Part shown: one piece after another, positions 1,726-54,446 of the stretch
Position numbering within the stretch: position 1 is the first letter of the stretch
Layout of the letters: every line of letters starts with the position of its first letter
DNA from: a virus
Lineage: Duplodnaviria; Heunggongvirae; Uroviricota; Caudoviricetes
Reading direction: 5' to 3' (one strand)
Length of the DNA: 64,000 nt
IMG/VR virus record: IMGVR_UViG_3300027896_000028
Position numbers and translations under genes: made by a program
The notes under the pieces: generated by a model
The model's database searches: none
Told to the model about the DNA's origin: nothing
The model's input: only the letters and a program-made list of their open reading frames with translations

Positions 1726-2156
1726 TTAGGAAAAATCTTAGCAAGAATCCTTTGATCTGCTTTCACTCTGTGCTCATTAAGCTTTTCTTCTTTGTAATCT
1801 AACATACTCTCTATAGCTGCTCTGATACGTTTGGCATCAGCTCGCTCAAATTTGAACATATCTGTATTGGTTAACCAAGCTTCGATGGGGCACGGGTTAT
1901 CCGCTTCTATCCCATAGATCCTGTCACCATCACAAAATGTTAATCTACGTTCTACTGTCTGACTAACTTCATCCGTCCACTTATCGTGGTTCTCAGGCCG
2001 GAGATCAACCAAAATTTGATTCACAATGCATTCATAGGAAACATCTTTCGGTGGTTCAGGTACCGGTGATGCAACTGGTGCAGGTTTCTTAAACGCAGTT
2101 GCAAATACTTTGTATGTATTACGTATATTTTGGAACATAATATCATTTAGCGACAC
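1713..2156 (-). CDS. hypothetical protein
   Basis: 147-aa ORF immediately upstream of the NAMPT-family gene on the same strand. Confidence 0.5.
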   Translation of the reverse strand: MSLNDIMFQNIRNTYKVFATAFKKPAPVASPVPEPPKDVSYECIVNQILVDLRPENHDKWTDEVSQTVERRLTFCDGDRIYGIEADNPCPIEAWLTNTDMFKFERADAKRIRAAIESMLDYKEEKLNEHRVKADQRILAKIFPNCVK

Positions 2157-3759
2157 GTGCCCGAATGTCTGCGAGCGTTTCGTTGATCAACAGTTTACCA
2201 TCGAGGAACACCGACTTGAGTTCACCCTTGGCTTCCTCTTCCGGAGTAACGCGATCGGTGTAGGTATAGTGGCCATCCACCAAGTCGACACGAACCATAC
2301 CTCTGGCAGACTTCTTCATACCATCATCCGACACCGGATCTTTGTACACATCGATCGCAGTGCCATTGACAATACCGTGAGTAGCTTTAATAGCCAGACC
2401 AAACGTATCGCGCGTATTGAATTGATACGTATAGCTACCAATGCCATAGACTGCGTTGGTGGAAGCAAAGCCCTTATCCTTGAGGCGGATACTGATCTTC
2501 TCTGCACGTTCCACAGTAATCGAATCACCATAGATAGCACCGATATGCGAATCCAACATCTTATAACCCTTCGGACTAACAGTACCATCGAAGATGTCCC
2601 AAAGAGATTCAATGAGACCCTTGCGTACCACTTCCTTCTCACGAGGCGTCAGCTTCTCCATCTGAGGATGGTAACCATCAAAGCCGCAGAGACAGTCCAC
2701 CGGATCAGTCCAGAACGAGTCGGGACGGATAACCAGCTTATCCACCGGGAAGCCTCCAGTACGGGCCATGATCTCAGGTTTCAACCGCGGAAGAATCTCA
2801 GATACAACACTGAAGAGGTTATATGTATCACCGACATACGACACAACACCACTCGGAAAGCCTTCAGTGATATACCATTTGAGGAAAGCGTACTCACGGA
2901 TGAGCATCGGATTGATAACCACTGGGTCGTGATCTTCTTGACCTTGACCTTCAGGTGTGCGATCAATAAATTCCTTCATCGACTTACCAAAGTATTCATC
3001 GTTATAGATGATGTTAAAGCTGGCCACAGCATGTTCAGAAGCTGGAACGCTAGCACCAACCAGTTCCTTCTCCACATCCGCATTGTAGTAGTGTTCCAAG
3101 AACTCAATAGCCGGAATGGTATCGGTCCCAGTGAAAGACAACAAATGTCCACCACCACTCGTACAAGCCGACTCCATGCTGCTCATACCACGGAAGCTGA
3201 AGTCATGACCCTGCCATTGACAGAAGCTGGTATCACCAACTGTTTCCATAGCGTACTTGTCGAGCACAGCCCGGAAGGTCTTGGCGATGGTAGCACTAGT
3301 CATCGGCTGCCAAGTGATACAGCTCCAGATGCTCTCCAGATAGTTCACCAACCAATAAGCATGATCAACGGTGTTGGTGATAGTCGTACACGGAGTACGA
3401 ATAGACACGCTAACACCTTCAGGAAGCGATTTGATATGAAGCGGGAGATAGCCCAAGTCGTGGAGCTTCTTGATGTGATCCGTAGTCACCGCACCCTTAC
3501 CGAGCGTGGCGTTAATCATACGGAGATACTTGGCTTCCACTTCAGCCCAAGGCTTACGGAAGAAGTTCACCTCCCATTGATTCAAGAGATACTCCTTGAT
3601 GAAGTATTGCAGGCCGAAGACAACAACCGTATTCGTACCTTCGATACGGCTCTTGCGTGGAGTGAGATTGGAATATACCTTCGTGGTGCCTTTCGGGTAC
3701 ATTTTATAATGTCCCTGTTTGTAGAAATCGTTTTGAATCAGTGGTTGGATATGTTTCAT
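2143..3759 (-). CDS. nicotinamide phosphoribosyltransferase family protein (NAMPT/NadV-like; candidate Namat of an NAD+ reconstitution pathway)
   Basis: 538 aa. The N-terminus MKHIQPLIQNDFYKQGHYKMYP and the overall length are typical of the NAMPT/NadV family. The long antisense ORF 2110..3894 is rejected. Confidence 0.85.
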   Translation of the reverse strand: MKHIQPLIQNDFYKQGHYKMYPKGTTKVYSNLTPRKSRIEGTNTVVVFGLQYFIKEYLLNQWEVNFFRKPWAEVEAKYLRMINATLGKGAVTTDHIKKLHDLGYLPLHIKSLPEGVSVSIRTPCTTITNTVDHAYWLVNYLESIWSCITWQPMTSATIAKTFRAVLDKYAMETVGDTSFCQWQGHDFSFRGMSSMESACTSGGGHLLSFTGTDTIPAIEFLEHYYNADVEKELVGASVPASEHAVASFNIIYNDEYFGKSMKEFIDRTPEGQGQEDHDPVVINPMLIREYAFLKWYITEGFPSGVVSYVGDTYNLFSVVSEILPRLKPEIMARTGGFPVDKLVIRPDSFWTDPVDCLCGFDGYHPQMEKLTPREKEVVRKGLIESLWDIFDGTVSPKGYKMLDSHIGAIYGDSITVERAEKISIRLKDKGFASTNAVYGIGSYTYQFNTRDTFGLAIKATHGIVNGTAIDVYKDPVSDDGMKKSARGMVRVDLVDGHYTYTDRVTPEEEAKGELKSVFLDGKLLINETLADIRARVAK

Positions 3760-4731: not shown

Positions 4732-5206
4732 TCGTTGTTCCGAAAGTGCGTACAGCCATTAACGTTTTCCCAAGGAGATTTAATCCTTGCCAATTCTTTT
4801 CATCGAGAATAAGATCATCATCCTCTGCAAGACCTACACCCCATATCTTATCTGTAGGTGAAGCTTCTACTAAAGTCCGTGAGCCTGTAGCTTTTAATAG
4901 TTCCCACAAGCCTAGATTCTGCCGAAACTTCGCAAGCACAGCAGTATGCATGGCGCGCTCACGTAATTTTTCCCATTTAGCATTGTTAAATCCTTTAACC
5001 AGTCTGCCTAGCTTCTTAGCTTCTGCAGGATGCTTAACACTTGCAATCTGCGTCATGATATCAGCATCGTTAAAATGGTAAGCCTTCAACCACATAAAGG
5101 CGTGCTCTGAAGTATAGAATGGTATATCGTCAATGTGTAACGGCGCAGGATAGAAGTTACTCATAAACCCACCGTAGAAATAGATATGTGTGTCAGTGGT
5201 CCTCAT
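4715..5206 (-). CDS. NADAR-domain protein (YbiA-like; NAD- and ADP-ribose-associated)
   Basis: 163 aa. IYFYGGFMSNFYPAPLHIDDIPFYTSEHAFMWLKAYHF matches the conserved YbiA/NADAR signature. Confidence 0.8.
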   Translation of the reverse strand: MRTTDTHIYFYGGFMSNFYPAPLHIDDIPFYTSEHAFMWLKAYHFNDADIMTQIASVKHPAEAKKLGRLVKGFNNAKWEKLRERAMHTAVLAKFRQNLGLWELLKATGSRTLVEASPTDKIWGVGLAEDDDLILDEKNWQGLNLLGKTLMAVRTFGTTIDAIS

Positions 5207-6099
5207 AGTTTGTCAAAGAATTTGTTCACTAACCCAAGGACGTGAATATTTGGGTGTTGCGTATCTACCAAATCATGGTAGTAACTATCAGTAGTCCATA
5301 TCTGATCAATACCGTTACATAACAATTTCTCAAGTGTAGTGGTTAGATTGGTATCTCCACCGAAGACTCCATGAGTAACGTAAAGAATAACCTTACCACA
5401 GTTCTTCTTCTTCAGCTCAGCAGCGAGACCAATGAATGTACCACCCATTTCGCAGATATCATCTACAATAACAACATTCCTACCTTTGAGATCATCGCAG
5501 TAAACAGCAATCTCTTTAATCTTTCCGTTTGTTAGATCGCGAAGCTTATCGGCCCGAACGAAATTGTCATGAGCCAACCAACCAGCCACTTCGGCTGTCT
5601 TCTTATTGCTACCAGCATCCGGACTGACGAGTACACTACCCATCAGAGTAGGAATGAAATCGGTATACTTGTTGAGTACATCGAGCTGAGAGATAATCTG
5701 AACCCGATCGATAACAGCTTCGCTAACCAAGCTATGAGGGTCGACAATGGTTACCTTGTTGAAGTTCAAGCTGTTGATGTAGTTAGCGAATACCTTCAAG
5801 CTAAAGGATTCACCTCTATCACAAACCCTATCCTGCCGAGCATAAGGCAGATAAGGCATGAACAGATTGATAGGGTTCTTGTCAAAGCGTTCAAGAGCGT
5901 CCTTCAGATTAGCCAGCTTGAACAAGTCATCGCTGTTCTGAATGCGAGCAACAATCACATTAGGCTGTTCAATAGATTGGTAAGCATAGTCAGCAGCATT
6001 AAGCTTGACAGACACTTCACCAGCAGGGAAGATGAATTCCTTGAAGTAAAGAGAACTTTTAATGCCAGTTGTGAGGTTAATTTTGTGGATGTTAAACAT
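5203..6099 (-). CDS. ribose-phosphate pyrophosphokinase (PRPP synthetase)-like protein; candidate Adps of an NAD+ reconstitution pathway
   Basis: 298 aa. The PRPP-binding loop NVVIVDDICEMGGTF is diagnostic of the Prs family. The long antisense ORF 5569..6120 is rejected. Confidence 0.8.
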   Translation of the reverse strand: MFNIHKINLTTGIKSSLYFKEFIFPAGEVSVKLNAADYAYQSIEQPNVIVARIQNSDDLFKLANLKDALERFDKNPINLFMPYLPYARQDRVCDRGESFSLKVFANYINSLNFNKVTIVDPHSLVSEAVIDRVQIISQLDVLNKYTDFIPTLMGSVLVSPDAGSNKKTAEVAGWLAHDNFVRADKLRDLTNGKIKEIAVYCDDLKGRNVVIVDDICEMGGTFIGLAAELKKKNCGKVILYVTHGVFGGDTNLTTTLEKLLCNGIDQIWTTDSYYHDLVDTQHPNIHVLGLVNKFFDKL

Positions 6100-7764: not shown

Positions 7765-8880
7765 TTAATGCTTAAAGCAATTGTCAATATCGATGCGAGC
7801 GAAGTTTGGAGTACCCAAACCAGTAAGACCATTGTAAAGGAACGTAACTGTCTTCCCTATCCAACCACCCACCTCAAAGAGAACCTTACGGTCCTCATAG
7901 CAACCTTTAAACGTTGCATCAAACTCTATACCCTCCCACAGCAATGTAGCTGTGACTGCAGAACCGTCCATCGTCTTGCCTTGATGGATAGCGAGGATCT
8001 TAGCTTCTGCGTCATCTTCGGGTTTAACCTTGAGTAGATCATATGAGCGACCGTGCTTGTAAGGAGCAGTGATAGACCGATACATAGCACCCTCGTACCC
8101 ATCATCTACATAGGATTGATACACTTTGTATGTCTCATCAACACTCTTCACCATCTCGTAGTCGACAACAACAATGTATTTGATATCCTGTAGAAAAGTC
8201 TTCAGAGCTTCACGACGCTGCAGGTTTCCGGTCTGCTCAGTAACGCCATTGAAACCGTAACCATCATAAACATAGAGCCGAACAAACTCTTCGCTCTCCT
8301 TTAAAACAGCTGGTGTGATCTTCTTCTCCTTCTTTTTGAGAATGCTCATCAACTTGTTGAGCTTATAACGGAACTCGTGATTGTAACCTTCACCATCAAT
8401 AACGAGATCAGGATATCTCTTAAAAAGAGGCTCCAAGGCTTTGATGATGTGTGGAATGGTAAGCCAGGTCTCACCCTTGCGAGTGAATGCACCATCCTTA
8501 GTAACAATGACACGACCACCGTTGTACTTGCGATCCAACATCGCCGGGAAAGTGATTGTATCAAGACGATCTTTGAGATGATAAGCGAGCATAGGCTCAA
8601 CGTACTGAAAGTTGTCAACATCATTGATAGAAAGGAAGTAACCAGTCTTGAGCTGTTTCTTGTATTTCGACTTGACCTCAGCTTCAGCTTGCTCTTCAGC
8701 AGTAGTAGCATTTGCCTTGCCGATGTTCTTCGGCTTAGCAATGACCCAATCTGATTCAACTAGATTAGGGCTACCCTTCACTCCAGCGACAGTACGAAAC
8801 TTATCACCATCACGCTGCTGATACCAGATGCGAATATTACCTGTTGAATCCTTACAATAGAGGGTGTCGTATGTTTTCAT
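7765..8880 (-). CDS. ATP-dependent DNA ligase (T7-like)
   Basis: 371 aa. Motif I is KYNGGR (compare T7 KYDGQR), motif IV is DGYEGAMYR and motif V is LLKVK. Confidence 0.8.
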   Translation of the reverse strand: MKTYDTLYCKDSTGNIRIWYQQRDGDKFRTVAGVKGSPNLVESDWVIAKPKNIGKANATTAEEQAEAEVKSKYKKQLKTGYFLSINDVDNFQYVEPMLAYHLKDRLDTITFPAMLDRKYNGGRVIVTKDGAFTRKGETWLTIPHIIKALEPLFKRYPDLVIDGEGYNHEFRYKLNKLMSILKKKEKKITPAVLKESEEFVRLYVYDGYGFNGVTEQTGNLQRREALKTFLQDIKYIVVVDYEMVKSVDETYKVYQSYVDDGYEGAMYRSITAPYKHGRSYDLLKVKPEDDAEAKILAIHQGKTMDGSAVTATLLWEGIEFDATFKGCYEDRKVLFEVGGWIGKTVTFLYNGLTGLGTPNFARIDIDNCFKH

Positions 8881-11219: not shown

Positions 11220-11540
11220 TTAGCGAGTTGAGGTGATTGCTTCGTTTGAATAATAAATTGTTTCAGTAGGTGTGACAACTGTGCAACTCCGTTGAGCGCA
11301 TTGCTTAATCAAATGTTTAGCTAGCTCCTTTGCTTTAGCATCAATCGTATCTGTTTCGCTAGGAAACCGAGGATAGTTAATCAAACCAACACAAACACCT
11401 GACTCCATTCCACCAGTAAAAACAAATAACGTTTTTGTGATGCTCACACAAAAACCAGATAGACAGTAGAAGCTACAAGCATTGACAACTGCATCGTAGT
11501 TACCAGCAATGTATATTTTAACTTCGTATGTCTTTACCAT
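11220..11540 (-). CDS. hypothetical protein
   Basis: 106-aa ORF. Confidence 0.45.
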   Translation of the reverse strand: MVKTYEVKIYIAGNYDAVVNACSFYCLSGFCVSITKTLFVFTGGMESGVCVGLINYPRFPSETDTIDAKAKELAKHLIKQCAQRSCTVVTPTETIYYSNEAITSTR

Positions 11541-11565
11541 GCCACAATAATAATAGAAGAATAAA

Positions 11566-11608
11566 AAAAAGCAAGAAAAACCCTGCGGAGTCTTATAGCT
11601 CCGCAGGG
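11566..11608 (-). terminator. rho-independent terminator
   Basis: Perfect 10-bp GC-rich stem CCCTGCGGAG/CTCCGCAGGG with an 8-nt loop, followed on the minus strand by a T-run. Lies immediately downstream of the pilin-like gene. Confidence 0.7.
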
Positions 11609-11628
11609 TTGCTAACTACACCAAGCTC

Positions 11629-11997
11629 TTATTGCATTGCGTGAGCTGGCGTGGCTGTTGACAGTGTGCATGTAGGTGAAGTACCTACGTTCACTGTGTC
11701 GTTGTACGTCCCGCCACCAGGGCAGCCAGGGACTTTATTATTAGCATTCAGTTTGATATAAACTGAAAGGCTAGCAGATACTGAAGCAGTAGTGCCAGCA
11801 GCCTTGTTGTTCTCTATCGCATACTCCTGCGCTGCATTGTCAATCTGCTGAAGATTGTTAATGCATGCATTAGCTTGCGTCGTTGCACGAGCTCTCACGA
11901 AGTTGGGAATAGCAATAGCAGCAAGCAATCCTATAATTGCGACAACTATCATTATTTCAACAAGCGTGAAGGCGCTTTGTCTTTTGGTCGTTTTCAT
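11629..11997 (-). CDS. type IV pilin / pseudopilin-like protein (prepilin-type N-terminal cleavage/methylation domain)
   Basis: Leader MKTTKRQSA followed by FTLVEIMIVVAIIGLLAAIAIP, the class III signal / N-methyl-Phe hydrophobic helix. Strong SD (AAAGGAGAG) 6 nt upstream of the chosen ATG. GC-rich. Confidence 0.75.
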   Translation of the reverse strand: MKTTKRQSAFTLVEIMIVVAIIGLLAAIAIPNFVRARATTQANACINNLQQIDNAAQEYAIENNKAAGTTASVSASLSVYIKLNANNKVPGCPGGGTYNDTVNVGTSPTCTLSTATPAHAMQ

Positions 11998-12204
11998 GTT
12001 ACTCTCCTTTGAACATGGCGTGGAACAATGCAGCAAGCGGGTTATATGTAGTATGTATTTGTTCCAGTTTATTGCTCGCTGCTACCATATAAATAATTTA
12101 AGCTACTATTTTAAAAAGGTCAACTAAATAGTTTTACTTCTACCTCATCACTCTGGTTGATTCGTGTAAAGCTTTAATAAATATAAGATAGGAACCTAAA
12201 GAAG

Positions 12205-14820
12205 ATGTCTGACAAAAACAACATTGTGGGTGCATTTCGTCACAAAAATACACTCATTACACCTACAGTAGTGAATCGAGGTAATAGCGTCATCTTTTAC
12301 ACATCAAAAAAGAGAATGACTCTCTCTGATGGTGCCTCACCCCTGTATGAATATACTGTACGCGGTAAAAGCCTTATTATTGAGTCCCATACAGTAAAAC
12401 CAGGTGTTGAGGTTGGTGTATTAACAATCGAGAATGCTAATTATGAGTTTCTTCTCCAGCCTGCCGGGAATCGGGAGTCGGCTATTATAATTAACCCAAA
12501 TCAAAAGAAAGTAGTCATTGATAATAGCAGCGTTGCATCCTATTTCACTAAAGATACCGACCACCCGAAATCAATAGAACAAAACAACGGACCTCTCAAG
12601 TTCAATAATTACGAGACAAAGCATCTAGTATATGAAGCACTCACACCACTCTCTGCTCTTATAGCAGAGAGTGTGAGCAATCAAAATGAGTCAATATCAT
12701 TAGCTCTCACAAATCTTAACAATTTCGTCAAAGAACAGCGAGTTGCCTTGGAAGGTGTAATCCAGAAGGATTTTGTCAAGATAAAAGAGTCTCAGCAGAC
12801 ATCATTTACTAAAGGATGGGAGAAGGTTCTCGAAATAACTGACAAGAAGACGTCCGAATGGTTTAAGGTTTATGGTGAGAAGACAAACAAGAAGGTCTCG
12901 TCCGAATTACAATCGTTCGCAAGGAATTTAATAAACGAAGCTGTTGAGAAGCAAGGTGAGGAACTGTTAAAGGAATCTCATACTCACCTAGCATCACTTA
13001 GTGCTTTAACATTCAAATGGTTTAAGGAGCAGGTTAATAACATTGAGAAGATGTCTGATCAACTGCTAGTCGAAAAGAATGAGCAGACTGAAACAGAATT
13101 GGACAAGCGAATAGAGAAGTTGACAGAACAGGTTACCCACAAGCTGCAACATCTTACAGATAAAGTAACGTCCGAATCCACAAAGATTGAACAGTCCTTG
13201 ACATCTAAAGTAGACAAAAAGACAAATGCTATTGACACGTTGTCTAAGTCGCTAGAGAAGATCATTAAGGAGACACCTGGTAATGTTACAGAGCTATTTG
13301 AGAGTGCATCTAGGAAGTGGACGAAGGCGCTCGAAGATAAGGTAACTGAGCTCGAAACATTCAAAGAGAGCATTTACAGTGGTAATAAAGATGTAGTAGA
13401 TAAGTTCAATAAGCTTTCACATAAGGTTACTGAAACAGAGACAGAGCTAGAGAAGCAGAAGAAGACTGTTAACAGGGAAGTAAAGACATATATCGACAAG
13501 CAGACTGCTGAGATGAAAATCTTGATTGGTAAGTCTCTGGAGTCTGGTGGTGGCTCTGCTACTAACCCATTCATTAACGGTGGCACGATGAATGGTGACC
13601 TAACTGTTAAGGGTAACTTAAACGTTGAAGGTATATATCTATCTGCTGGTATTAGTTTATTCACGCTACTATCTGGTGCGGGCGGTGGAACTGGTAGAGA
13701 TGATGTTAACACAGTTGTTATATCTAGCTCAGCTAACTGGAATAGTGTATTCTCAACGGTTAAAGCTAATAGCGCTGAATGGGAAGCTGATTTTACAGTT
13801 GTAAACACTAACTCAGCTAATTGGGATACTGCATACGGTTACTCTACAGTGTACAGTTCTAACAGTGCGTCTTACGGTTCAACATATTCTACCGTTAACA
13901 CTAATAGCGCTAGCTGGGATATATCTTCTGCATACGCAACGGTATACAGCTCTAACAGTGCTAAGTACGAATCTAATTATAGTACGACTACCACTAACTC
14001 AGCTAACTGGGGTAGTGTATACACCACAGTAAATAATACTAGCGCTAATTGGAATATTGGTTATGATTTTGGTACAACGTTCAGTGTTATTAGTGCTTCA
14101 TATGATTCGTCTTATTCAACTGTTAATGCTAACTCCGCTAACTGGGATATCAGTTTTAAATACAGCACAGTTTATAGTGCCAATAGCGCTACATACGCCA
14201 CAATCGCTTATACAGCAAATTATCTGCCTCTCAGTGGTGGTAGCGTAGTAGGTGATGTTACAATTTTCGGTAATCTAACAGCATACGGCACAATTACCTT
14301 CTTAGACACACAGGTAATTGTTGCCAGTGCAATGCATATTACCAATACAGGTACTGGCCCTGCATTAGTAGTAAATCAAACAGGCCCTCAACCTATTGCA
14401 GATTTCCAAGATGACGGTTTTACTGTTGTTCGTATCGCTGATGATGGCTTTGTTGGTATTGGGACAATTACACCGAATGTTGAATTGACGGTTAAGGGTG
14501 CTATCAGCGCTACTGGAGACGTTACATTTAATAGCAGCCTAAACTTAATGCCGGTCGTTTCGGGGGCTGCTGTTGTCTTAGGTGCTAAATCATTCTACGT
14601 ATATTCTGGTGCAGGTGATATTACTTGGACGCTACCTGATTTAGCATCATCACCTAATAGAATGTATTTTATCAAGAATCGTAGTGCGGCTGGTAACATT
14701 TCCCTAAATGCTAGTGGAGCTGATAATTTATACTACACCTCTGTAACGCCTTCTTACAACGTAGGGCCTGGTGAAGCTTATATCATCGCAAACGATGGCA
14801 CATACTGGGAGATCATGTAA
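12205..14820 (+). CDS. tail fiber-like protein (long coiled-coil stalk, NSANW-type repeats, C-terminal beta-rich domain)
   Basis: 871 aa. A roughly 250-aa heptad-rich coiled coil, then GGTMNGDLTVKGNLNVEG and TITPNVELTVKG fiber-type motifs. At least 10 degenerate N(S/T)(A/S)NW repeats (aa 510-650). Confidence 0.65.
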   Translation: MSDKNNIVGAFRHKNTLITPTVVNRGNSVIFYTSKKRMTLSDGASPLYEYTVRGKSLIIESHTVKPGVEVGVLTIENANYEFLLQPAGNRESAIIINPNQKKVVIDNSSVASYFTKDTDHPKSIEQNNGPLKFNNYETKHLVYEALTPLSALIAESVSNQNESISLALTNLNNFVKEQRVALEGVIQKDFVKIKESQQTSFTKGWEKVLEITDKKTSEWFKVYGEKTNKKVSSELQSFARNLINEAVEKQGEELLKESHTHLASLSALTFKWFKEQVNNIEKMSDQLLVEKNEQTETELDKRIEKLTEQVTHKLQHLTDKVTSESTKIEQSLTSKVDKKTNAIDTLSKSLEKIIKETPGNVTELFESASRKWTKALEDKVTELETFKESIYSGNKDVVDKFNKLSHKVTETETELEKQKKTVNREVKTYIDKQTAEMKILIGKSLESGGGSATNPFINGGTMNGDLTVKGNLNVEGIYLSAGISLFTLLSGAGGGTGRDDVNTVVISSSANWNSVFSTVKANSAEWEADFTVVNTNSANWDTAYGYSTVYSSNSASYGSTYSTVNTNSASWDISSAYATVYSSNSAKYESNYSTTTTNSANWGSVYTTVNNTSANWNIGYDFGTTFSVISASYDSSYSTVNANSANWDISFKYSTVYSANSATYATIAYTANYLPLSGGSVVGDVTIFGNLTAYGTITFLDTQVIVASAMHITNTGTGPALVVNQTGPQPIADFQDDGFTVVRIADDGFVGIGTITPNVELTVKGAISATGDVTFNSSLNLMPVVSGAAVVLGAKSFYVYSGAGDITWTLPDLASSPNRMYFIKNRSAAGNISLNASGADNLYYTSVTPSYNVGPGEAYIIANDGTYWEIM
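13720..14200 (+). repeat. degenerate coding tandem repeats (about 45 nt; NxSANW(D/N)xxY motif)
   Basis: Repeated TNSANW / NSASW / NSAKY units are visible in the translation of 12205..14820. Confidence 0.5.
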
Positions 14821-19142: not shown

Positions 19143-21641
19143 ATGAGATACATATATGCTATACTTGCTGCACTACTCATATTCATTCCTAGAGTAGGAG
19201 CGGTATCTAAGACTGCAGTTTCTACTGGTAACTGGAATGCCGCTATTTGGAGTCCCACTGGAGTTCCAGTCTCTACAGATTCCGTTATTATCTCTAACGT
19301 TACAGTCACCATTACTAATAACATAACGATTACAAATCTCTGGTTGACGAATGCAGTATCAGTTTTAGTAGTTACAAACCCAAATGGCCCAGCTTCCTTA
19401 ACGGTGAAAGGTAACCTCACGAATGAGTCTGGATCAACACTGTCACTCGCCGCGAATTGTACTTGTACGAACCTTGTCATCAATGGTGTTGCTAATAGCA
19501 CAGGTGGACTGATTCTTTTATACAACAGCATATCGCTTACTGCTCAATCAATTACTACGACTGGATTTGGTTCTGGTTCTGGTTCGATTAATAGTGTGAC
19601 TGGAAATAACGTTTGTACCAATCATGGCCAATTTGTTTCTGGCGCTGGTGGGTTTCAGTTGGGATGTGATTCAGGCTCATTTACTCATTCAGGAGGAACT
19701 GGCTCAATAGGATTTAACAAATATGGGGCGGGAACGAATATTCTATATGGGGCGGATGGTACAACTGGCGCACATACTATAAATGCAGGTGTGTGGCAGC
19801 TAAGTCCAGGAGCTTCAATGCAAGCAGTATCTTGGACTATAAAAGGAGTTTTGGACTTGAATAATAACAACTTAGCAGTTGGCGCAGTGGCAAATAAAAC
19901 AATCACACTAGGTAACTCTACAGTTTGTGATATCAAAACAGGAACTGGCACAATGAGTATTTTTTATCCTGATACTATAATTTCAACCTCAGGTGCGGTA
20001 ACTAGCACCATTAGTGGAAACTTAGATATTAATAAGTTTACGAATAATAATGGCGGTCTTCGATTTAATACAGTTAACTCTGCCGCATACATAAAACTTC
20101 AAGCGGTAGTTTCGGGTGGAGGGTTTGTTAAGACTAATGTAGGTACTCTAGAACTTTCTGGTGCAAACATATATACAAATCAATTAGAGATAGCGCAAGG
20201 GGTATTAGTGTTAACTGTCGCTCCTAATAGTAACAACGTTGCTGGTCCATTTGGTAGTAACGCACTCCCGGTGCTTCTTGGAAGCTCAAGTACAATAGCT
20301 AATGCCACTTTGACCTTTGGATTTGATGGATCATCAGATAAAGACTTCTATGTAGGTGTTTCAGGTGAGAGCGGTCCTGCAAATGCTATTAATACGAGTG
20401 GTGGTAACATAGAATTATCAGGATTTATCACTGCTCCTGGTGGAGCTACATCTAAGATGATAGAAAAACGTGGAGGATTAACTCTTACACTTTCCGGAAT
20501 AACTGATAATCTTTGGGTTAAGTGGTATTTAATAGGTGGAACGTTAGTTCTCAATAAATCAAATCCGGCTACTCGAGCAGGTGCTGAGTTATGGCTTGAT
20601 GGTACTTTTAGTACTACAGCTAGACTAGGTCCTGATAGTGGTGGTGATCAAATAGGTACTGGAGGACTAGGAGGAAACCTTAACTTTACTAATCAGAATC
20701 CTGGATCTTTCTCAGTGTTTGATATGAATGGTCAGAATGAAGCTATTGATATTATAAGCGCACCGGTCTCTACTAATTTTATCATCTGTAACAATAGCAA
20801 CAATACCATCTCTACTCTTACTGTAGGTACATCAACTCCTGGCGGTAGTTCATCTTACGGCGGACTATTCTTAGATAATACAAATGGAAGTGGAGGGGGT
20901 TTGGCTTTAAGGAAATATGGTACCGGTATATTCACCTTCTGTTATTCTAATCTATCAGCGTTTACAGGAGGAGTCTTAGTTAGTAATGGTATCTTATCTG
21001 CTACCAACGGGTTCAGGTTTGGTGAAAGCAATAATATCACAGTGGTTCAAGGCGCATATCTATCCCTATTTTCATCATCTAGCGTGCTCGGTACAAACGC
21101 TTGGTTATTTTTAGGTACAAATGCGGGTTCGTTTGTAACTAATAGTTTTAATGGAACTAACTTTATTGGTGCATTGTTCACCAATGGTGTTCGCCTAGCA
21201 AACGGCACCTACGGTGTATCCAACTCTCCTGCAGCTAATAAGATTAACGTCTTCGCAGCAACTAATGTAAATGGTAACGGTATATTGAGTGTGGGTAACG
21301 TTCCTAATGGTATAGCACCGGTTATCACAAACGTTACAGCTAGCTACTTCGAAAATCGCAGTCACTATCCTTGGGCCATACTAACTGGAGTAATCAGCAA
21401 TTCACAAGGTATCTATCCAGCACAAGGAGAAACAGTAACAGCCAAGATAGATGGATTCCCAGCTTATAACGGAACAGTAACTAACAATACAGGCAGATTC
21501 GTAGTAACTAATAGAATTGAGTCTATACCTGGAGGTATATTTCCTATACTATACTCTTATACAGGAGGAACAAACCTCTTAGCTGCACCTACAAATAGCA
21601 GCACAATATTAACCAATGTAGGTTCATTCATGACTTTTTAA
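19143..21641 (+). CDS. autotransporter-like beta-helix repeat protein (PATR-type repeats)
   Basis: 832 aa. Signal-peptide-like MRYIYAILAALLIFIPRVGA. Repeated G-x-GTL-x-LSGAN-x-YT motifs (VGTLELSGANIYTNQLEIAQGVLVL; LRKYGTGIFTF...NGILSATNG) match passenger-associated transport repeats. Confidence 0.55.
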   Translation: MRYIYAILAALLIFIPRVGAVSKTAVSTGNWNAAIWSPTGVPVSTDSVIISNVTVTITNNITITNLWLTNAVSVLVVTNPNGPASLTVKGNLTNESGSTLSLAANCTCTNLVINGVANSTGGLILLYNSISLTAQSITTTGFGSGSGSINSVTGNNVCTNHGQFVSGAGGFQLGCDSGSFTHSGGTGSIGFNKYGAGTNILYGADGTTGAHTINAGVWQLSPGASMQAVSWTIKGVLDLNNNNLAVGAVANKTITLGNSTVCDIKTGTGTMSIFYPDTIISTSGAVTSTISGNLDINKFTNNNGGLRFNTVNSAAYIKLQAVVSGGGFVKTNVGTLELSGANIYTNQLEIAQGVLVLTVAPNSNNVAGPFGSNALPVLLGSSSTIANATLTFGFDGSSDKDFYVGVSGESGPANAINTSGGNIELSGFITAPGGATSKMIEKRGGLTLTLSGITDNLWVKWYLIGGTLVLNKSNPATRAGAELWLDGTFSTTARLGPDSGGDQIGTGGLGGNLNFTNQNPGSFSVFDMNGQNEAIDIISAPVSTNFIICNNSNNTISTLTVGTSTPGGSSSYGGLFLDNTNGSGGGLALRKYGTGIFTFCYSNLSAFTGGVLVSNGILSATNGFRFGESNNITVVQGAYLSLFSSSSVLGTNAWLFLGTNAGSFVTNSFNGTNFIGALFTNGVRLANGTYGVSNSPAANKINVFAATNVNGNGILSVGNVPNGIAPVITNVTASYFENRSHYPWAILTGVISNSQGIYPAQGETVTAKIDGFPAYNGTVTNNTGRFVVTNRIESIPGGIFPILYSYTGGTNLLAAPTNSSTILTNVGSFMTF

Positions 21642-21909: not shown

Positions 21910-22455
21910 ATGAAAGCAATTGTAGCAATGGATTTAAACCGAACCATTGGTAATAACGGTAAACTCCCCTGGCCAAAAATTAAAGAAGATTTCGCGTTCT
22001 TCAAGAAGATGACTATAGGTGACAATCTTATCATGGGTCGCAAGACTTTTGACTCTGTAGGTGAGTTACCTGGACGCTTCACTTGGATCTTAACTAATGA
22101 TCAATCTAAGATGGCTAAGAAGTGCCTTAATATGGCTGGTGAGAGTTATGCCTACAATAATAACAGCGCTTATGTTGAGCGAGCTGATATTGATAAATTT
22201 ATAGCGACTGAAGGAAAAGATCCTCGATACACTAGCGATTTATGGGTTTGTGGTGGTGCCCAAATCTACAAAGATCTGATTCCCCTCTGCACAGATGTTT
22301 ATGTTACTCTAGTATTGAACGAATACGAAGGTGATACATTTCTACCGGAGTTTGAACATCTCTTCATTGAGCAAACTATTATTAAAGAACATAAAGACTT
22401 CTGGATCATTAGATACCACACACCTACTGCGATACCGGGAACACAATTGGTATAG
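21910..22455 (+). CDS. dihydrofolate reductase
   Basis: 181 aa. AIVAMDLNRTIGNNGKLPW and WVCGGAQIY are the DHFR signature motifs. Confidence 0.85.
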   Translation: MKAIVAMDLNRTIGNNGKLPWPKIKEDFAFFKKMTIGDNLIMGRKTFDSVGELPGRFTWILTNDQSKMAKKCLNMAGESYAYNNNSAYVERADIDKFIATEGKDPRYTSDLWVCGGAQIYKDLIPLCTDVYVTLVLNEYEGDTFLPEFEHLFIEQTIIKEHKDFWIIRYHTPTAIPGTQLV

Positions 22456-29461: not shown

Positions 29462-29788
29462 TCAATGCGCAGTCGACAAATAGTGACTGTGCAAACCAAC
29501 TACCTTGTTACCCATTTCCGGGAACGCGACAAAATAGCGAGTAAATTGCCGGTTGCTATTACCACGGATATGGACACCATCCTGAGTCGAGACCGCGACA
29601 ACCGTACCGGTCAAGCCAACATACTTCTTGTAACGACCTTGCTCACTCTTGCGAGTATTGCGCGTAACCTTCACCGTTTGAGCGGGGGTAAATTTGCAAT
29701 TGCGGTTCGTGCTTTGGTCCCACTCAGTGAGCACCGAGGCATAGATGTTGTTCTTGTCGAGTAATTTGATACGTTTCGTTAAGTTCAT
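29462..29788 (-). CDS. hypothetical protein
   Basis: 108 aa. GC-rich. Confidence 0.45.
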   Translation of the reverse strand: MNLTKRIKLLDKNNIYASVLTEWDQSTNRNCKFTPAQTVKVTRNTRKSEQGRYKKYVGLTGTVVAVSTQDGVHIRGNSNRQFTRYFVAFPEMGNKVVGLHSHYLSTAH

Positions 29789-44009: not shown

Positions 44010-44573
44010 TTATTTCAGATAAGTGGCAAGTGTTTTTAGCGTTTCACTAAAGGAAACTGAAGACACTTTACAAATACCACCTAGCTTGCGTTCCACCATG
44101 CCGTATAGCCATTTACAGAGATTTTCCGAAGTTGGTACAAATTGCACCAATACTAACCCACCCGCCACTTCAATATGATGGGGCGCCGTTGATGGTGTTG
44201 GCGCGATACAATACTCTACGTGATCATTTACAACAACCGCTTGAACGGCATTGAGATCTAGTGCTGATACCTTATCGAGATTTGTTCGCGTGGAATTGAC
44301 AAAATCAATCGCCCACGGGTCTTCGAGATCTAAAATGGTTTTATGGTCCAGCTGATCATCTATAAACTTCTTAAACCAATTCAAATTAACATAATCAAGA
44401 AGCATGCCTTGCGGGTTAACCATTTCCCCTTCTAACTCCACTGTGATGATAGAGTTGTGGCCATGGCACCTCTTACATTTGCAAATAGAATTGTTTGAGA
44501 GTTCATCAGAAAGCTCTTGTTTCCAGACACGATGGGTGTAGCAGAGTTCGAATTGTTTTGAGATTTTATACAT
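44010..44573 (-). CDS. 6-carboxytetrahydropterin synthase (QueD/PTPS)-like protein
   Basis: 187 aa with a CxxxHGH motif (CKRCHGHNSIITVELEG). Confidence 0.6.
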   Translation of the reverse strand: MYKISKQFELCYTHRVWKQELSDELSNNSICKCKRCHGHNSIITVELEGEMVNPQGMLLDYVNLNWFKKFIDDQLDHKTILDLEDPWAIDFVNSTRTNLDKVSALDLNAVQAVVVNDHVEYCIAPTPSTAPHHIEVAGGLVLVQFVPTSENLCKWLYGMVERKLGGICKVSSVSFSETLKTLATYLK

Positions 44574-45324: not shown

Positions 45325-45624
45325 TTATTTGGGTGACATATCTGGATTTATAGCCCATTGAATGCATTTCATATCTGTGATATCCACTAAGCGGATACCG
45401 TTCTTCGTTTTAAAGGTAACATGGTTATCTACCTTAGGCGGTTCTATTTTAGGCTGACAATTATCGCAACGTTTGATGTGAAAATCCCAATGGCCACAAA
45501 CATCACAAAAAAAGCCACACGAAGGTTTCCCTTCATGCGGCTTGGACGGATCTGTATTGCCAGAATAAGGCATAAACAGTTTGAAAATGTAGTAGCTAAT
45601 ATCTGTTGTAGGATTTGTAGTCAT
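45325..45624 (-). CDS. cysteine-rich small protein
   Basis: 99 aa with CGFFCDVCGH...CDNC. Confidence 0.4.
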   Translation of the reverse strand: MTTNPTTDISYYIFKLFMPYSGNTDPSKPHEGKPSCGFFCDVCGHWDFHIKRCDNCQPKIEPPKVDNHVTFKTKNGIRLVDITDMKCIQWAINPDMSPK

Positions 45625-51124: not shown

Positions 51125-51143
51125 GATTTCTAAACACAAAAAA

Positions 51144-51176
51144 AGCCTGTAGATTTCTCTACAGGCTTTTTTATTT
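51144..51176 (+). terminator. rho-independent terminator
   Basis: 10-bp stem AGCCTGTAGA/TCTACAGGCT followed by TTTTTTATTT, immediately after the stop of 50831..51124. Confidence 0.7.
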
Positions 51177-54131: not shown

Positions 54132-54392
54132 TTAATCAGGTTCAATGAATGATAAATCGTTTTGAAACCAAGATTCACCTTCATGATGTTTACAGCACTT
54201 ATTTGAGCAATAACCCCACCAATCTCCTTCATATTGAGGATGATCTTTGGTATCCCAATTACAGCAAACATGGATGATAGGCCAACCACAATCTTTGCAA
54301 TGTATACCTTCTGAAATTTCTATCGTCTCTGTGCTAGTTTTATATTTCAACTTATGCATAAATGGTGGGAATGATAGGATTTGCACATACAC
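54132..54392 (-). CDS. Cys/His-rich small protein
   Basis: 86 aa with CKDCGW...HVCCNW...CSNKCCKHHEG. Confidence 0.4.
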   Translation of the reverse strand: MYVQILSFPPFMHKLKYKTSTETIEISEGIHCKDCGWPIIHVCCNWDTKDHPQYEGDWWGYCSNKCCKHHEGESWFQNDLSFIEPD

Positions 54393-54446
54393 TGTTTACC
54401 TCCTCAAGGTAACGTCTCCTGCTAGTTGGACTACATTCCCGTAAAT

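What the first reader, a model, noticed from the sequence alone, without database searches (positions are those of the whole stretch)
11566..11997. Type IV pilin-like moron with strong Shine-Dalgarno and GC-rich terminator in an otherwise SD-less, AT-rich genome
The gene has a canonical prepilin leader and N-methyl-Phe helix. It is preceded by AAAGGAGAG-N6-ATG and followed by a 10-bp GC-rich terminator. Neighbouring phage genes show A/T-rich leaders without an SD. The GC content and expression signals suggest recent acquisition from a different lineage. A phage-encoded pilin or pseudopilin could alter host pili or type II secretion, or cause superinfection exclusion.
Basis: seen in the sequence. 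Interest (0 to 1): 0.6.

Follow-up and report, generated by a model that had tools for sequence, protein, structure and literature searches.

The report
Phage pilin cassette with structured leader
A large phage carries an old, well-preserved copy of a pilus-subunit gene from its likely hosts (Verrucomicrobia), along with that gene's folded RNA leader and terminator, so the "foreign-looking" signals belong to the gene family and do not indicate a recent import.

Summary
The gene is real: a 122-aa type IV pilin-like protein at window 11629-11997 (-). It has a GGAG six bases before the ATG and one of only three strong terminators in 64 kb, in a phage whose other genes show no Shine-Dalgarno (SD) signal.

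The "recent import from another lineage" reading fails.
- The closest relatives (79-91% identity) sit on low-GC contigs; one encodes a close homologue of this window's DNA ligase. Each gene's GC follows its own contig.
- Synonymous sites between these copies are saturated while the protein is conserved.
- The gene's GC3 is ordinary for this window.
- The next relatives (about 60-73%) are chromosomal genes of Verrucomicrobia subdivision 3/Limisphaerales, whose loci also show no SD enrichment.

The bacterial genes are single-gene cassettes: sigma-54 promoter, a roughly 75-nt leader RNA, a purine-rich (GAAAG) start region, the pilin ORF and a GC hairpin terminator.

The leader has three covarying helices, two interleaved, and matches no Rfam family. 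The phage copies keep leader and terminator and lack the sigma-54 promoter; here TTGACC-17-TAAATT stands in its place. The GGAG is a local variant of the purine-rich tract.

Most likely (inferred), the pilin is made in infected cells and enters the host's type IV filament, changing a surface receptor. The leader's role is unknown.

The parts
12095..12123 (-). Sigma-70-type promoter-like site, TTGACC (12123-12118), 17-nt spacer, TAAATT (12100-12095). It occupies the position where the bacterial homologues have a sigma-54 promoter.
   Evidence: Consensus scan; coordinates checked. Bacterial copies carry TGGCAC-N5-TTGCT at this place: GG-N10-GC in 57 of 63 and the strict motif in 46 of 63, against 0 of 4 phage copies. 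Promoter activity is inferred and was not shown.
12015..12088 (-). Conserved structured 5' leader RNA. P1 is ATGG 12088-12085 with CCAT 12018-12015. P2 is GCAGCGAGC 12082-12074 with GCTTGCTGC 12038-12030. P3 is TGGAACAA 12066-12059 with TTGTTCCA 12028-12021. P2 and P3 are interleaved, giving pseudoknot topology.
   Evidence: Covariance models score this stretch at 82.2 bits (E 2e-20) and 63.6 bits (E 1e-15). On 68 copies, 91.3% of cells pair and 15 of 20 pairs show changes on both sides. The covariation score is 0.317, against at most 0.082 when partners are slid, and 0 of 500 shuffles reach it. RNAalifold and an unbiased mutual-information scan both recover P1 and P2. P3 variants are compensatory. 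No Rfam family matches. Coordinates were checked.
11998..12014 (-). Purine-rich translation initiation region, GTTCAAAGGAGAGTAAC, with the SD-like AAAGGAGAG at 12002-12010 (GGAG at 12004-12007, 6 nt before the ATG).
   Evidence: Across the family this region is purine-rich: GAAAG occurs in 43 of 67 cassettes, an SD-like 4-mer in 11 of 67 and a 5-mer in 7 of 67. Phage relatives have CAGAGGAAAC (L091) or GAAAAGAAAGAAGAA (L088, L092) here.
11629..11997 (-). Pilin coding sequence, 122 aa. Leader peptide MKTTKRQSA, then FTLVEIMIVVAIIGLLAAIAIPNF and a small C-terminal domain with three conserved Cys.
11566..11610 (-). Intrinsic terminator: stem ACCCTGCGGAG / CTCCGCAGGGT (11609-11599 and 11590-11580), loop CTATAAGA, then TTTTCTTGCTTTTT.
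   Evidence: A comparable hairpin plus T-run follows 57 of 67 family cassettes, including the phage relatives, with unrelated stem sequences.

Best explanation
WHAT IT IS
- This is a complete single-gene expression cassette for a small (about 123 aa) type IV pilin. The same kind of cassette is chromosomal, often in tandem copies, in Verrucomicrobia subdivision 3/Limisphaerales.
- An ancestor of a group of low-GC phage-like contigs, to which this phage belongs, captured it. It has been kept under purifying selection long enough for its codon usage to drift to phage composition.
- The cassette consists of a promoter, a roughly 75-nt leader RNA with three covarying helices (two interleaved), an unstructured purine-rich start region, the pilin ORF and a strong intrinsic terminator.
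- The phage copies kept the leader and the terminator. They lack the host's activator-dependent sigma-54 promoter; in this window a sigma-70-like site stands in its place.
- The GGAG is a local variant of the family's purine-rich tract. It is not an imported ribosome-binding strategy.

HOW IT MOST LIKELY WORKS (inferred, not shown)
- During infection the pilin is made at a high level and inserted in the inner membrane.
- The host's prepilin peptidase cleaves it, since no peptidase gene was seen in the part of this window that was annotated.
- It is then polymerised into the host's type IV filament in place of, or mixed with, the host pilin.
- That changes the filament surface, so that phages using the filament as a receptor, including the phage's own progeny, no longer adsorb to infected cells.

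THE LEADER RNA
- It probably sets mRNA stability or translation of this very abundant message. Whether it senses a signal is unknown.
For: SHOWN
- Pilin identity.
- Phage nature of the window. It encodes NAMPT, PRPP synthetase, DNA and RNA ligases and a virion structural protein, and carries 10 tRNA genes. It has no close GenBank relative.
- Closest bacterial relatives are Verrucomicrobia subdivision 3/Limisphaerales metagenome-assembled genomes at 60-66% identity, plus an unnamed chromosomal contig at 73%.
- A closely related group of six (79-91% identical to the window pilin, all others at most 73%) lies on low-GC contigs. One carries a DNA ligase homologue 78-89% identical to that of the window. 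The contig of the closest one (91%) encodes similar nucleotide-metabolism genes.
- Gene GC tracks the carrier: 38-46% in the low-GC contigs and this window, against 53-62% in bacteria.
- pS is 0.76-0.85 and pN 0.07-0.13 between the window and the related copies.
- All family-invariant residues are retained, including Phe+1, Glu+5 and three Cys.
- The leader RNA occurs 68 times in 884 kb, always on the pilin strand; in 67 of the 68 hits a FTLVE-type pilin ORF follows directly.
- Covariation of the leader helices.
- The leader core is 64-76% identical between phage copies. The flanking promoter region is 29-43% identical and the start region 35%.
- Sigma-54 promoters stand before 57 of 63 bacterial copies (GG-N10-GC) and before none of 4 phage copies.
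- Terminators follow 57 of 67 cassettes.
- No SD enrichment in the phage or in Limisphaerales-like loci, consistent with SD-less Verrucomicrobiales in the literature.
- The cassette sits in four different contexts or orientations in related contigs, as expected for a self-contained moron.

BY ANALOGY
- Prophage FimU proteins are built into the Pseudomonas pilus and block phages that bind its tip. PilA-like genes occur in virulent phages and were proposed to act in the same way (PMC12952977).
Against: - No expression, processing or assembly data exist.
- The host is inferred only from the cassette, the absence of SD signals and a PATR repeat in a neighbouring protein.
- Position -1 of the cleavage site is Ala in 5 of the 6 low-GC copies, against Gly in 113 of 119 family members. 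From my own recollection of Strom and Lory 1991, Ala at this position lowers cleavage by Pseudomonas PilD. That would fit an inhibitor better than a building block. One bacterial lineage also has Ala.
- The bacterial cassettes are not next to pilus or secretion machinery genes, so a type IV pilus versus a type II secretion pseudopilus is unresolved.
- The globular domain of the model has only moderate confidence (pLDDT 63-71). Foldseek found nothing significant.
- Nothing shows that this phage or its competitors use pili as a receptor.
- The two interleaved helices have only 1 nt between their 3' strands, so they may be alternative states and not form together.
Confidence: 0.6

Rival explanations
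1. The gene was acquired recently from a lineage that uses SD sequences and has higher GC. Its SD and GC-rich terminator are undigested foreign signals.
For: The gene's GC (45.8%) is above the window mean (40.7%). It is the only gene in the window with AAGGAG at the right distance from a start codon. Its terminator has the most G-C pairs of the three strong ones.
Against: - GC and GC3 lie within the spread of the phage's own genes (88th and 72nd percentile).
- The closest homologues are on related low-GC contigs with matching low GC.
- Synonymous sites are saturated between these copies.
- Bacterial homologues have 53-62% GC and no canonical SD: 'gaaagaaag' leaders, with an SD-like 5-mer in 7 of 67.
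- The donor group shows no SD enrichment.
- The terminator is a family trait.
Confidence: 0.04
2. A poison or decoy pilin. The phage protein is a poorly cleavable prepilin that occupies the host prepilin peptidase or caps and blocks assembly. This shuts down type IV pili, and possibly type II secretion, in the infected cell without the protein being built into filaments.
For: - Ala replaces the near-invariant Gly at -1 in the window and in P0001, P0002, P0004 and P0005. That is 5 of the 6 low-GC copies, against 2 of 114 others.
- Two of four distinct pilin-like genes on IMG/VR viral contigs also have Ala at -1.
- Published phage strategies often disable pili instead of remodelling them (abstracts listed).
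- Truncated PilA-like proteins in Pseudomonas phages were suggested to inhibit assembly.
Against: - All assembly-relevant invariant residues, including Glu+5, and the whole globular domain are conserved under purifying selection. A mere plug would not need them.
- One of the low-GC copies (P0003/L091) has Gly at -1.
- A bacterial lineage with 53% GC also has Ala at -1, so Ala seems tolerated in this family.
Confidence: 0.2
3. A moron that boosts host fitness or phage yield. Extra or variant pilin increases adhesion, twitching, aggregation or DNA and nutrient uptake of the infected or lysogenic cell. It would have no role in excluding other phages.
For: The cassette keeps the full set of host expression elements and an assembly-competent protein. 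Bacterial genomes themselves keep several tandem paralogues, which suggests variant pilins are useful.
Against: No integrase or lysogeny genes were looked for or seen in the annotated part of the window. The gene content (tRNAs, nucleotide and NAD metabolism genes) resembles large virulent phages, which leaves little time for host-level benefits. The sigma-54 promoter is absent from the phage copies, which uncouples the gene from host signalling.
Confidence: 0.12
4. The conserved upstream element is a DNA operator for a repressor or activator and not an RNA, or it is conserved in phages only because too little time has passed for it to decay.
For: The element consists of inverted repeats downstream of a promoter, which could bind dimeric regulators. 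Single-sequence folding of the window copy is not better than shuffles (z = -0.38).
Against: - The arms vary freely in sequence but keep complementarity. One pair shows AU 41, GC 10, CG 8 and GU 5. A compensating base insertion occurs in P3 of the window copy.
- In the table I count 49 G-U or U-G cells against 15 A-C or C-A cells. That asymmetry points to the sense-strand RNA.
- Between phage copies synonymous sites are saturated and the flanks are 29-43% identical, yet the core is 64-76% identical with compensatory changes.
- The nested-only folding used cannot score interleaved helices.
Confidence: 0.07

Closest known systems
Phage-encoded type IV pilus components: prophage FimU (P-FimU) and PilA-like proteins of prophages and virulent phages (Sztanko et al., Cell Rep 2026, PMC12952977)
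   Same: A phage genome carries a homologue of a host pilus subunit. For P-FimU, incorporation into the pilus and protection against tip-binding phages were shown. PilA-like genes were noted in non-temperate phages and proposed to act by superinfection exclusion.
   Different: - Those are Pseudomonas and Xylella systems. This one belongs to a Verrucomicrobia-type pilin family.
- The function here is untested.
- Here the phage also retains the host gene's structured RNA leader and terminator and lacks its sigma-54 promoter. I did not see either feature mentioned in the abstract or in the section on other phage pilus components, which are the parts of that paper I read.
- Ala at -1 is typical of this group of copies.
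PHROG families phrog_27437 (unknown function) and phrog_3433 ('pilin', moron category)
   Same: Both match the N-terminal half of the protein, with E 2.3e-11 and 4.2e-10. Pilin-like genes in phages are therefore already catalogued.
   Different: The matches cover only residues 2-78, essentially the shared N-terminal helix. The closest real relatives are Verrucomicrobia genes and five uncatalogued metagenomic copies on low-GC contigs.
Sigma-54-dependent major type IVa pilin genes such as pilA of Pseudomonas aeruginosa and Myxococcus xanthus (my own knowledge)
   Same: The bacterial members of this family have a canonical TGGCAC-N5-TTGCT promoter and are monocistronic with a strong terminator. 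The best sequence matches among solved structures are PilA proteins, over the N-terminal helix.
   Different: All NCBIfam equivalog scores are far below their cut-offs (PilA_Myxo 48.6 against 400). The protein is much smaller. The phage copies lack the sigma-54 promoter. No PilS/PilR or machinery genes are nearby.
Riboswitch control of a pilin gene: the c-di-GMP-II riboswitch before Clostridioides difficile pilA1 (my own knowledge)
   Same: A conserved, pseudoknot-containing 5' leader RNA directly precedes a major pilin gene.
   Different: No Rfam model, including the cyclic-di-GMP models if present in release 15, matches either the phage or the bacterial copies. No terminator or start-site-masking helix follows the element. 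No ligand is known or implied.
Classical phage morons: an extra gene with its own promoter and terminator between essential genes (Hendrix and colleagues; my own knowledge)
   Same: A self-contained transcription unit with a promoter-like site and a terminator. Its position and orientation vary among related contigs, and it stands out from the phage's own expression signals.
   Different: It is not compositionally foreign any more. It also carries a conserved host-derived regulatory RNA.
Isolated SD sequences in organisms whose ribosomes ignore SD, such as rpsU of Flavobacterium johnsoniae (PMC13000453; abstract)
   Same: A lone strong SD-like sequence in a genome that otherwise avoids them.
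   Different: In Flavobacterium the SD is conserved and has a shown autoregulatory role. Here it is not conserved even among the closest copies. Whether Limisphaerales ribosomes can use it is unknown.

Membership tests
Type IV pilin / class III signal peptide (prepilin) proteins | Short basic leader peptide ending in Gly at -1, the prepilin peptidase site | tested here: not met
   The leader MKTTKRQSA is short and basic, but -1 is Ala. Gly occupies this position in 113 of 119 close family members.
Type IV pilin / class III signal peptide (prepilin) proteins | Phe or Met at +1, Glu at +5, and a hydrophobic N-terminal helix of about 20 residues | tested here: met
   FTLVEIMIVVAIIGLLAAIAIPNF. Pfam N_methyl scores 33.4 bits (cut-off 21.2) and TIGR02532 28.1 (cut-off 16.3). 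The model has a helix at residues 12-62.
Type IV pilin / class III signal peptide (prepilin) proteins | A globular alpha/beta head packed on the helix, usually with a C-terminal disulphide | tested here: inconclusive
Type IV pilin / class III signal peptide (prepilin) proteins | Cleavage and N-methylation by a prepilin peptidase, and polymerisation by an assembly ATPase and platform | not testable with these tools
   No second prepilin motif occurs in the window. The annotated part of the window shows no machinery genes. Biochemistry is needed.
Small (about 123 aa) pilin family of Verrucomicrobia subdivision 3/Limisphaerales | Full-length similarity with all family-invariant residues | tested here: met
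   60-74% identity over 95-100% of the length to thousands of members. All 43 invariant columns are shared.
Small (about 123 aa) pilin family of Verrucomicrobia subdivision 3/Limisphaerales | The cassette's structured 5' leader RNA (P1, P2, P3) | tested here: met
   The window copy scores 82.2 and 63.6 bits with two models. Its helices are kept through compensatory changes.
Small (about 123 aa) pilin family of Verrucomicrobia subdivision 3/Limisphaerales | Sigma-54 promoter TGGCAC-N5-TTGCT immediately upstream of the leader | tested here: not met
   GG-N10-GC is present in 57 of 63 bacterial copies and the strict motif in 46 of 63. Both are absent from all 4 phage copies. The window has TTGACC-17-TAAATT instead.
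Small (about 123 aa) pilin family of Verrucomicrobia subdivision 3/Limisphaerales | A strong intrinsic terminator right after the ORF (monocistronic unit) | tested here: met
   57 of 67 cassettes have one. The window hairpin folds at -23.1 kcal/mol, followed by a T-run.
Type II secretion major pseudopilin GspG | Score above the curated cut-off of TIGR01710, and linkage to gsp genes | tested here: not met
   39.5 bits against a cut-off of 88.85, matching the N-terminal 60 residues only. No gsp genes were seen near the bacterial homologues examined.
Any described RNA family (Rfam 15, 4227 models) | A covariance-model match to the leader | tested here: not met
   Nothing relevant at E up to 10 in the window (11500-12250) or in L014 (4800-5100). 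Nothing at gathering thresholds in 14 loci that hold the element.
SD-led translation initiation | A GGAGG-like core 5-10 nt before the start codon, in an organism whose genes are enriched for it | tested here: inconclusive
   Motif and spacing are met (GGAG-N6-ATG). There is no enrichment in the phage (5% against 5%) or in Limisphaerales-like loci (9% against 10%). The motif is not conserved in the closest copies.
Phage superinfection-exclusion by replacement of a pilus subunit (P-FimU type) | Incorporation into the host filament and a block of adsorption of pilus-dependent phages | not testable with these tools
   Only analogy is available.

The most novel reading that the evidence does not exclude
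The roughly 75-nt leader would be a new class of signal-responsive riboregulator, binding a ligand or a protein, with interleaved helices. It would control major-pilin synthesis in Verrucomicrobia (Limisphaerales). Phages would have kept it while discarding the sigma-54 promoter, so that their own pilin variant stays under the same post-transcriptional control in the infected cell.
Probability: 0.3. Interest if true: 0.8.

Novelty: new variant of a known kind. Interest (0 to 1): 0.55.

Why it matters
Phage genes for pilus subunits are known, but their functions are mostly guessed. This case adds four things.

1. It links an uncultured large phage lineage to Verrucomicrobia subdivision 3/Limisphaerales, a group from which I know of no isolated phage. 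The link rests on a captured gene together with its non-coding signals and on a shared lack of SD sequences.

2. It exposes a widespread structured leader RNA, well supported by covariation and absent from Rfam, in front of a very abundant pilin gene family. It therefore points to an unknown layer of pilus regulation in a poorly studied phylum.

3. The phage copies serve as a natural experiment. Promoter, codon usage and start-region sequence all changed, while the RNA helices, the terminator and the protein's invariant residues were kept. This shows which parts of the cassette matter.

4. It is a caution for sequence-only reading. Expression signals that look foreign can be family traits of a long-resident gene.

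Tried and rejected
- Megablast of window 1-25000 against GenBank phages found only tRNA-Met matches, so there is no close relative there.
- A protein-seeded scan of IMG/VR found 5 pilin-like loci at 43-60% identity. They belong to a different subfamily and have no leader RNA.
- A back-translated pattern specific to the six closely related copies (QE[YW]AIENNK) was scanned. The IMG/VR scan returned nothing.
- The contig of the closest homologue (P0001, 91%) has no DNA on file. Its leader and terminator could not be examined.
- Single-sequence folding of the window leader is not better than shuffles (z -0.38). The tool cannot model interleaved helices. It did predict P2, plus a non-conserved hairpin that buries the AUG.
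- I looked for further covarying pairs, such as tertiary contacts or an anti-start-site helix, with an all-against-all mutual-information scan. Nothing appeared beyond P1 and P2.
- I looked for pilus or secretion machinery next to the bacterial cassettes. I found housekeeping genes, TPR proteins and HisKA_3 histidine kinases instead.
- PHROG and Pfam gave no function for the large repeat-rich proteins next to the cassette. The exceptions are one virion structural protein hit and one PATR repeat, so calling them "tail fibres" remains a guess.
- A second weak model hit in the window (21056-21163, 19.8 bits, E 0.087) was treated as noise.
- A library search for papers on Gly-to-Ala at -1 of prepilins found nothing directly usable. 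That point rests on my memory of Strom and Lory 1991.
Full report
1. THE OBSERVATION

The finding's coordinates cover a minus-strand gene. The ATG is at 11997 and the stop codon at 11629-11631, giving 122 aa. The longest ORF starts at a TTG at 12036, but the ATG start matches the N-termini of all relatives (MKT.K...).

- The protein matches the prepilin N-terminal methylation motif above the curated cut-offs: Pfam N_methyl 33.4 against 21.2 bits, and TIGR02532 28.1 against 16.3.
- AAAGGAGAG lies at 12002-12010, just outside the stated range, with GGAG six bases before the ATG.
- The terminator has a perfect 10-11 bp stem with 8 G-C pairs, an 8-nt loop and a T-rich tail.
- With a strict definition, only three such terminators exist in the 64 kb.
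- The phage's other genes have no SD. SD-like 4-mers occur upstream of 5% of 101 ORFs, the same as at a control position inside genes.
- Positions -10 to -1 before those genes are 2-12% G.
- AAGGAG is not enriched in the window (24 observed, 27 expected), and only this copy precedes a genuine start.
- A perfect AGGAGGT before a GTG ORF at 54392 lies inside a tRNA-Leu gene and is spurious.

Two points are weaker than stated.
- The cleavage site has Ala, not Gly, at -1.
- The GC contrast is small. The gene is 45.8% GC against 40.7 +/- 4.0%. GC3 is 40.7% against 37.4 +/- 8.2%. The excess sits at codon position 2.

2. THE WINDOW

The window belongs to a large phage.
- It encodes nicotinamide phosphoribosyltransferase, PRPP synthetase, DNA ligase, RNA ligase, a glycosyltransferase, an HNH endonuclease, ATPases, dihydrofolate reductase and a virion structural protein.
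- It carries ten tRNA genes.
- GenBank phages share only a tRNA-Met-like stretch with it.

3. RELATIVES OF THE PILIN

The homologue search was saturated: 7999 of the 8000 scored candidates had E <= 0.001.

- Five proteins are 79-91% identical to the window pilin. Everything else is at most 73%.
- The 91% relative lies on a 14.9-kb contig full of small ORFs. That contig also encodes PRPP synthetase, NADAR, HIT and nucleoside deoxyribosyltransferase genes, which is phage-like gene content similar to this window. No DNA was available for it.
- The 84% relative (L091) lies next to a DNA ligase gene whose product is 78-89% identical to that of the window.
- The 79-86% relatives (L088-L090, L092) lie on 33-37% GC contigs. 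One sits within an array of six tRNA genes.
- In these relatives the gene's GC is 38-43% and GC3 25-33%, so it follows the carrier.
- Between the window and these copies the proportion of synonymous differences is 0.76-0.85, which is saturated. Non-synonymous differences are 0.07-0.13.

The gene has therefore been in this group of low-GC, phage-like contigs for a long time under purifying selection.

- The nearest bacterial gene (73%) is on a chromosomal contig with argB-like, hisB, RNase E/G, FtsW and PBP2 genes.
- In a species-representative genome collection the best 80 loci are mostly labelled Verrucomicrobia subdivision 3, Verrucomicrobiae, Limisphaerales or Pedosphaera. More distant members are in Kiritimatiellia, Planctomycetia, Armatimonadota and Lentisphaerae.
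- Bacterial copies have 53-62% GC.

4. THE CASSETTE

Printing the upstream regions side by side showed that about 100 nt before the ATG are conserved between the bacterial and the phage copies. Two covariance models were built from these. One encodes helices P1+P2 and the other P1+P3.

- The second model gave 68 hits at E <= 0.001 in 884 kb, all on the pilin strand. The first gave 73 hits at E <= 1 in 897 kb, one of them on the opposite strand in the window and treated as noise.
- In 67 of the 68 hits a FTLVE-type pilin ORF follows directly.
- Several bacterial loci hold two or three cassettes about 600-680 bp apart.
- The window has one strong hit, at 11992-12109 (-).

The structure was counted on an alignment that was not fitted to P2.
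- 91.3% of cells pair, and 15 of 20 pairs show changes on both sides.
- The covariation score is 0.317, against at most 0.082 when the partners are slid by 1-3 columns. None of 500 shuffles reaches the observed values.
- RNAalifold independently predicts P1 and P2, with compensatory changes in 10 of 14 pairs.
- An all-against-all mutual-information scan ranks four P2 pairs first, second, third and fifth.
- P3 is GUGAAC/GUUCAC in most copies. Compensated variants are GUGGAC/GUCCAC (nine copies), GUGAGC/GCUCAC, CGGAAC/GUUCCG, UGGAAC/GUUCCA (the window, with a compensating insertion on both strands), AGGAC/GUCCU (L091) and AGAAC/GUUCU (L088, L092).
- In the table I count 49 G-U or U-G cells against 15 A-C or C-A cells. 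This points to the sense-strand RNA and not to a DNA site.

P2 and P3 are interleaved: P2-5', P3-5', P2-3', P3-3', with only 1 nt between the two 3' strands, and P1 encloses both. I cannot tell whether they form together as a compact pseudoknot or alternately.

No Rfam 15 family matches the element in the phage or the bacterial copies. Two literature searches on related terms turned up no description of it.

The element is present in 45 of the 80 genome loci. All loci labelled Kiritimatiellia, Planctomycetia, Armatimonadota or Lentisphaerae lack it. This ties the phage cassette to the Limisphaerales-type lineages.

5. PROMOTER, START REGION AND TERMINATOR

- Immediately upstream of the leader, 57 of 63 bacterial copies have GG-N10-GC, and 46 have the strict TGG[CT]A-N6-NTGC[TA]. 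This is the sigma-54 promoter consensus. More than half of all strict matches in 831 kb are at these sites.
- None of the four phage copies has it.
- The window has TTGACC-17-TAAATT at the same place. That would start transcription at about the first base of P1. This start point is inferred.
- Between P1 and the ATG the family has 20-27 purine-rich nucleotides. GAAAG occurs in 43 of 67 cassettes, an SD-like 4-mer in 11 and a 5-mer in 7. The window is the only copy I saw with AAGGAG.
- The low-GC relatives have CAGAGGAAAC or GAAAAGAAAGAAGAA here. The "strong SD" is thus a local variant of a purine tract, and even the closest relatives do not conserve it.
- Limisphaerales-like loci show no SD enrichment (9% upstream against 10% control; crude gene starts).
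- Verrucomicrobiales are reported to lack SD sequences genome-wide, and some Verrucomicrobia are listed as SD-scarce (PMC10798248, PMC10783764).
- A hairpin of at most -10 kcal/mol followed by a T-run follows 57 of 67 cassettes. The stems differ in sequence, and in the low-GC relatives they contain fewer G-C pairs.
- Between phage copies the leader core is 64-76% identical. The promoter region is 29-43% identical and the start region 35%. The RNA is therefore under selection in the phages too.

6. THE PROTEIN

- It keeps all 43 invariant positions of a 66-sequence alignment. These include Phe+1, Glu+5, the whole N-terminal helix, three Cys and the CP.GG.Y motif.
- The AlphaFold2 model (pLDDT 73.8) is a long helix plus a small, less confident head.
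- Ala at -1 occurs in the window and four of its five closest relatives. Among 114 other family members it occurs in only two sequences of one bacterial lineage.
- It is the only prepilin motif in the window.

7. MECHANISM

Shown:
- a host-type pilin cassette;
- long residence in this group of low-GC contigs;
- absence of the sigma-54 promoter from the phage copies;
- retention of the leader RNA, the terminator and the assembly-relevant residues;
- variable position in related contigs.

Inferred:
- The pilin is expressed in infected cells independently of the host's sigma-54 activator.
- It is processed by the host peptidase and built into the host filament.
- That alters a receptor. This matches what was shown for prophage FimU and proposed for phage PilA-like proteins, including those of virulent phages (PMC12952977).

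The main rival is a poison or decoy pilin, suggested by Ala at -1. A benefit to host adhesion or uptake is possible but less likely for what looks like a large virulent phage.

The leader's role is open. It could stabilise the mRNA, keep the start region unpaired in an SD-less host, or respond to a signal. No terminator or start-masking helix follows it.

8. COMPARISON AND NOVELTY

- Phage-borne pilin genes are a known kind (PHROG 3433; PMC12952977).
- New here are the host group, the long-conserved group of related copies, and above all the co-captured structured leader RNA, which is not in Rfam.
- Bacterial pilin cassettes with a sigma-54 promoter fit classical major type IVa pilin genes (my own knowledge). 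Membership in any named pilin subfamily, or a choice between pilus and pseudopilus, could not be established.

9. VERDICT

- The interpretation of recent foreign origin is wrong.
- The gene is an ordinary kind of phage accessory gene in an unusual host group.
- Its most interesting part lies just outside the reported coordinates: the leader RNA at 12015-12088.

Noticed in passing
window, upstream of 56 ATG-start ORFs (for example 7765-8880, 29462-29788, 44010-44573): Phage gene starts are preceded by A/T-rich, G-depleted sequence. T occupies -1 in 75% of cases. TAnnnT hexamers such as TATAAT or TAAATA end at -6 in 10 of 56 cases. This suggests very short or absent mRNA leaders.
   Followed up: partly
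window 54363-54440 and ORF 54132-54392 (-): A perfect AGGAGGT five bases before a GTG ORF lies inside a tRNA-Leu gene. It is not a real ribosome-binding site.
   Followed up: yes
window 45512-45543 (-) and 51143-51168 (both strands): These are the only other strong perfect-stem terminators in the 64 kb. The one at 51.15 kb reads as a terminator on both strands, next to tRNA-Arg.
   Followed up: no
window 19143-21641 (+): An 832-aa protein in the block of large repeat-rich proteins next to the cassette carries a PATR repeat (PF12951, E 1e-6). From my own knowledge this repeat is common in Verrucomicrobia and Planctomycetes surface proteins, so it is a weak extra hint to the host.
   Followed up: no
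window 2143-3759, 5203-6099, 7765-8880, 45624-46694, 21910-22455; tRNAs at 24494-63772: The window encodes NAD salvage genes (NAMPT and PRPP synthetase), DNA ligase, RNA ligase and dihydrofolate reductase, and carries ten tRNA genes (four Leu, three Arg, and one each of Met, His and Phe). This is typical of large virulent phages.
   Followed up: partly
L003-L007 (IMG/VR contigs), pilin-like genes near position 10001 (2445 in L005): Other viral contigs carry a different subfamily of PVC-type pilins (LNSI.NNLRI.EGAKDQWALE) without the leader RNA. Two of the four distinct genes also have Ala at -1. Four of these contigs have 52-58% GC and may be prophages or bacterial fragments.
   Followed up: partly
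L012, L013, L018, L020, L021, L024, L056, L059 (bacterial loci): Pilin cassettes occur as tandem arrays of two or three paralogues about 600-680 bp apart. Most have their own sigma-54 promoter, leader RNA and terminator.
   Followed up: partly
L009 3081-4151 and L024 3706-4824: HisKA_3-type histidine kinase genes lie directly upstream of pilin cassettes in two bacterial loci. They are possible regulators. No pilus machinery genes are nearby.
   Followed up: no
L088 97-2372: In one related low-GC contig the pilin cassette sits inside an array of six tRNA genes. In L091 it lies divergently next to the DNA ligase gene. In the P0001 contig it is on the opposite strand to all its neighbours. The cassette has therefore moved within these genomes.
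   Followed up: partly
window 11995-12017 (-): In the window copy only, CAUGUU (just after P1) can pair with AACAUG, which includes the start codon, leaving the GGAG in the loop. The relatives do not conserve this.
   Followed up: partly
leader alignment A3, region between P1 and the ATG: A GAAAG motif lies 10-17 nt before the ATG in 43 of 67 cassettes. It could be the real ribosome or protein contact in this SD-less group.
   Followed up: no
L013, L028, L033, L056, L057, L081, L086 (genome contigs record titles): Several loci with this Verrucomicrobia-type pilin, six of them also carrying the leader RNA, are labelled Acidoferrum, Klebsiella, Akkermansia, Bifidobacterium, Angelobacter or Saccharimonadales bins. 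These are probably binning or labelling errors.
   Followed up: no
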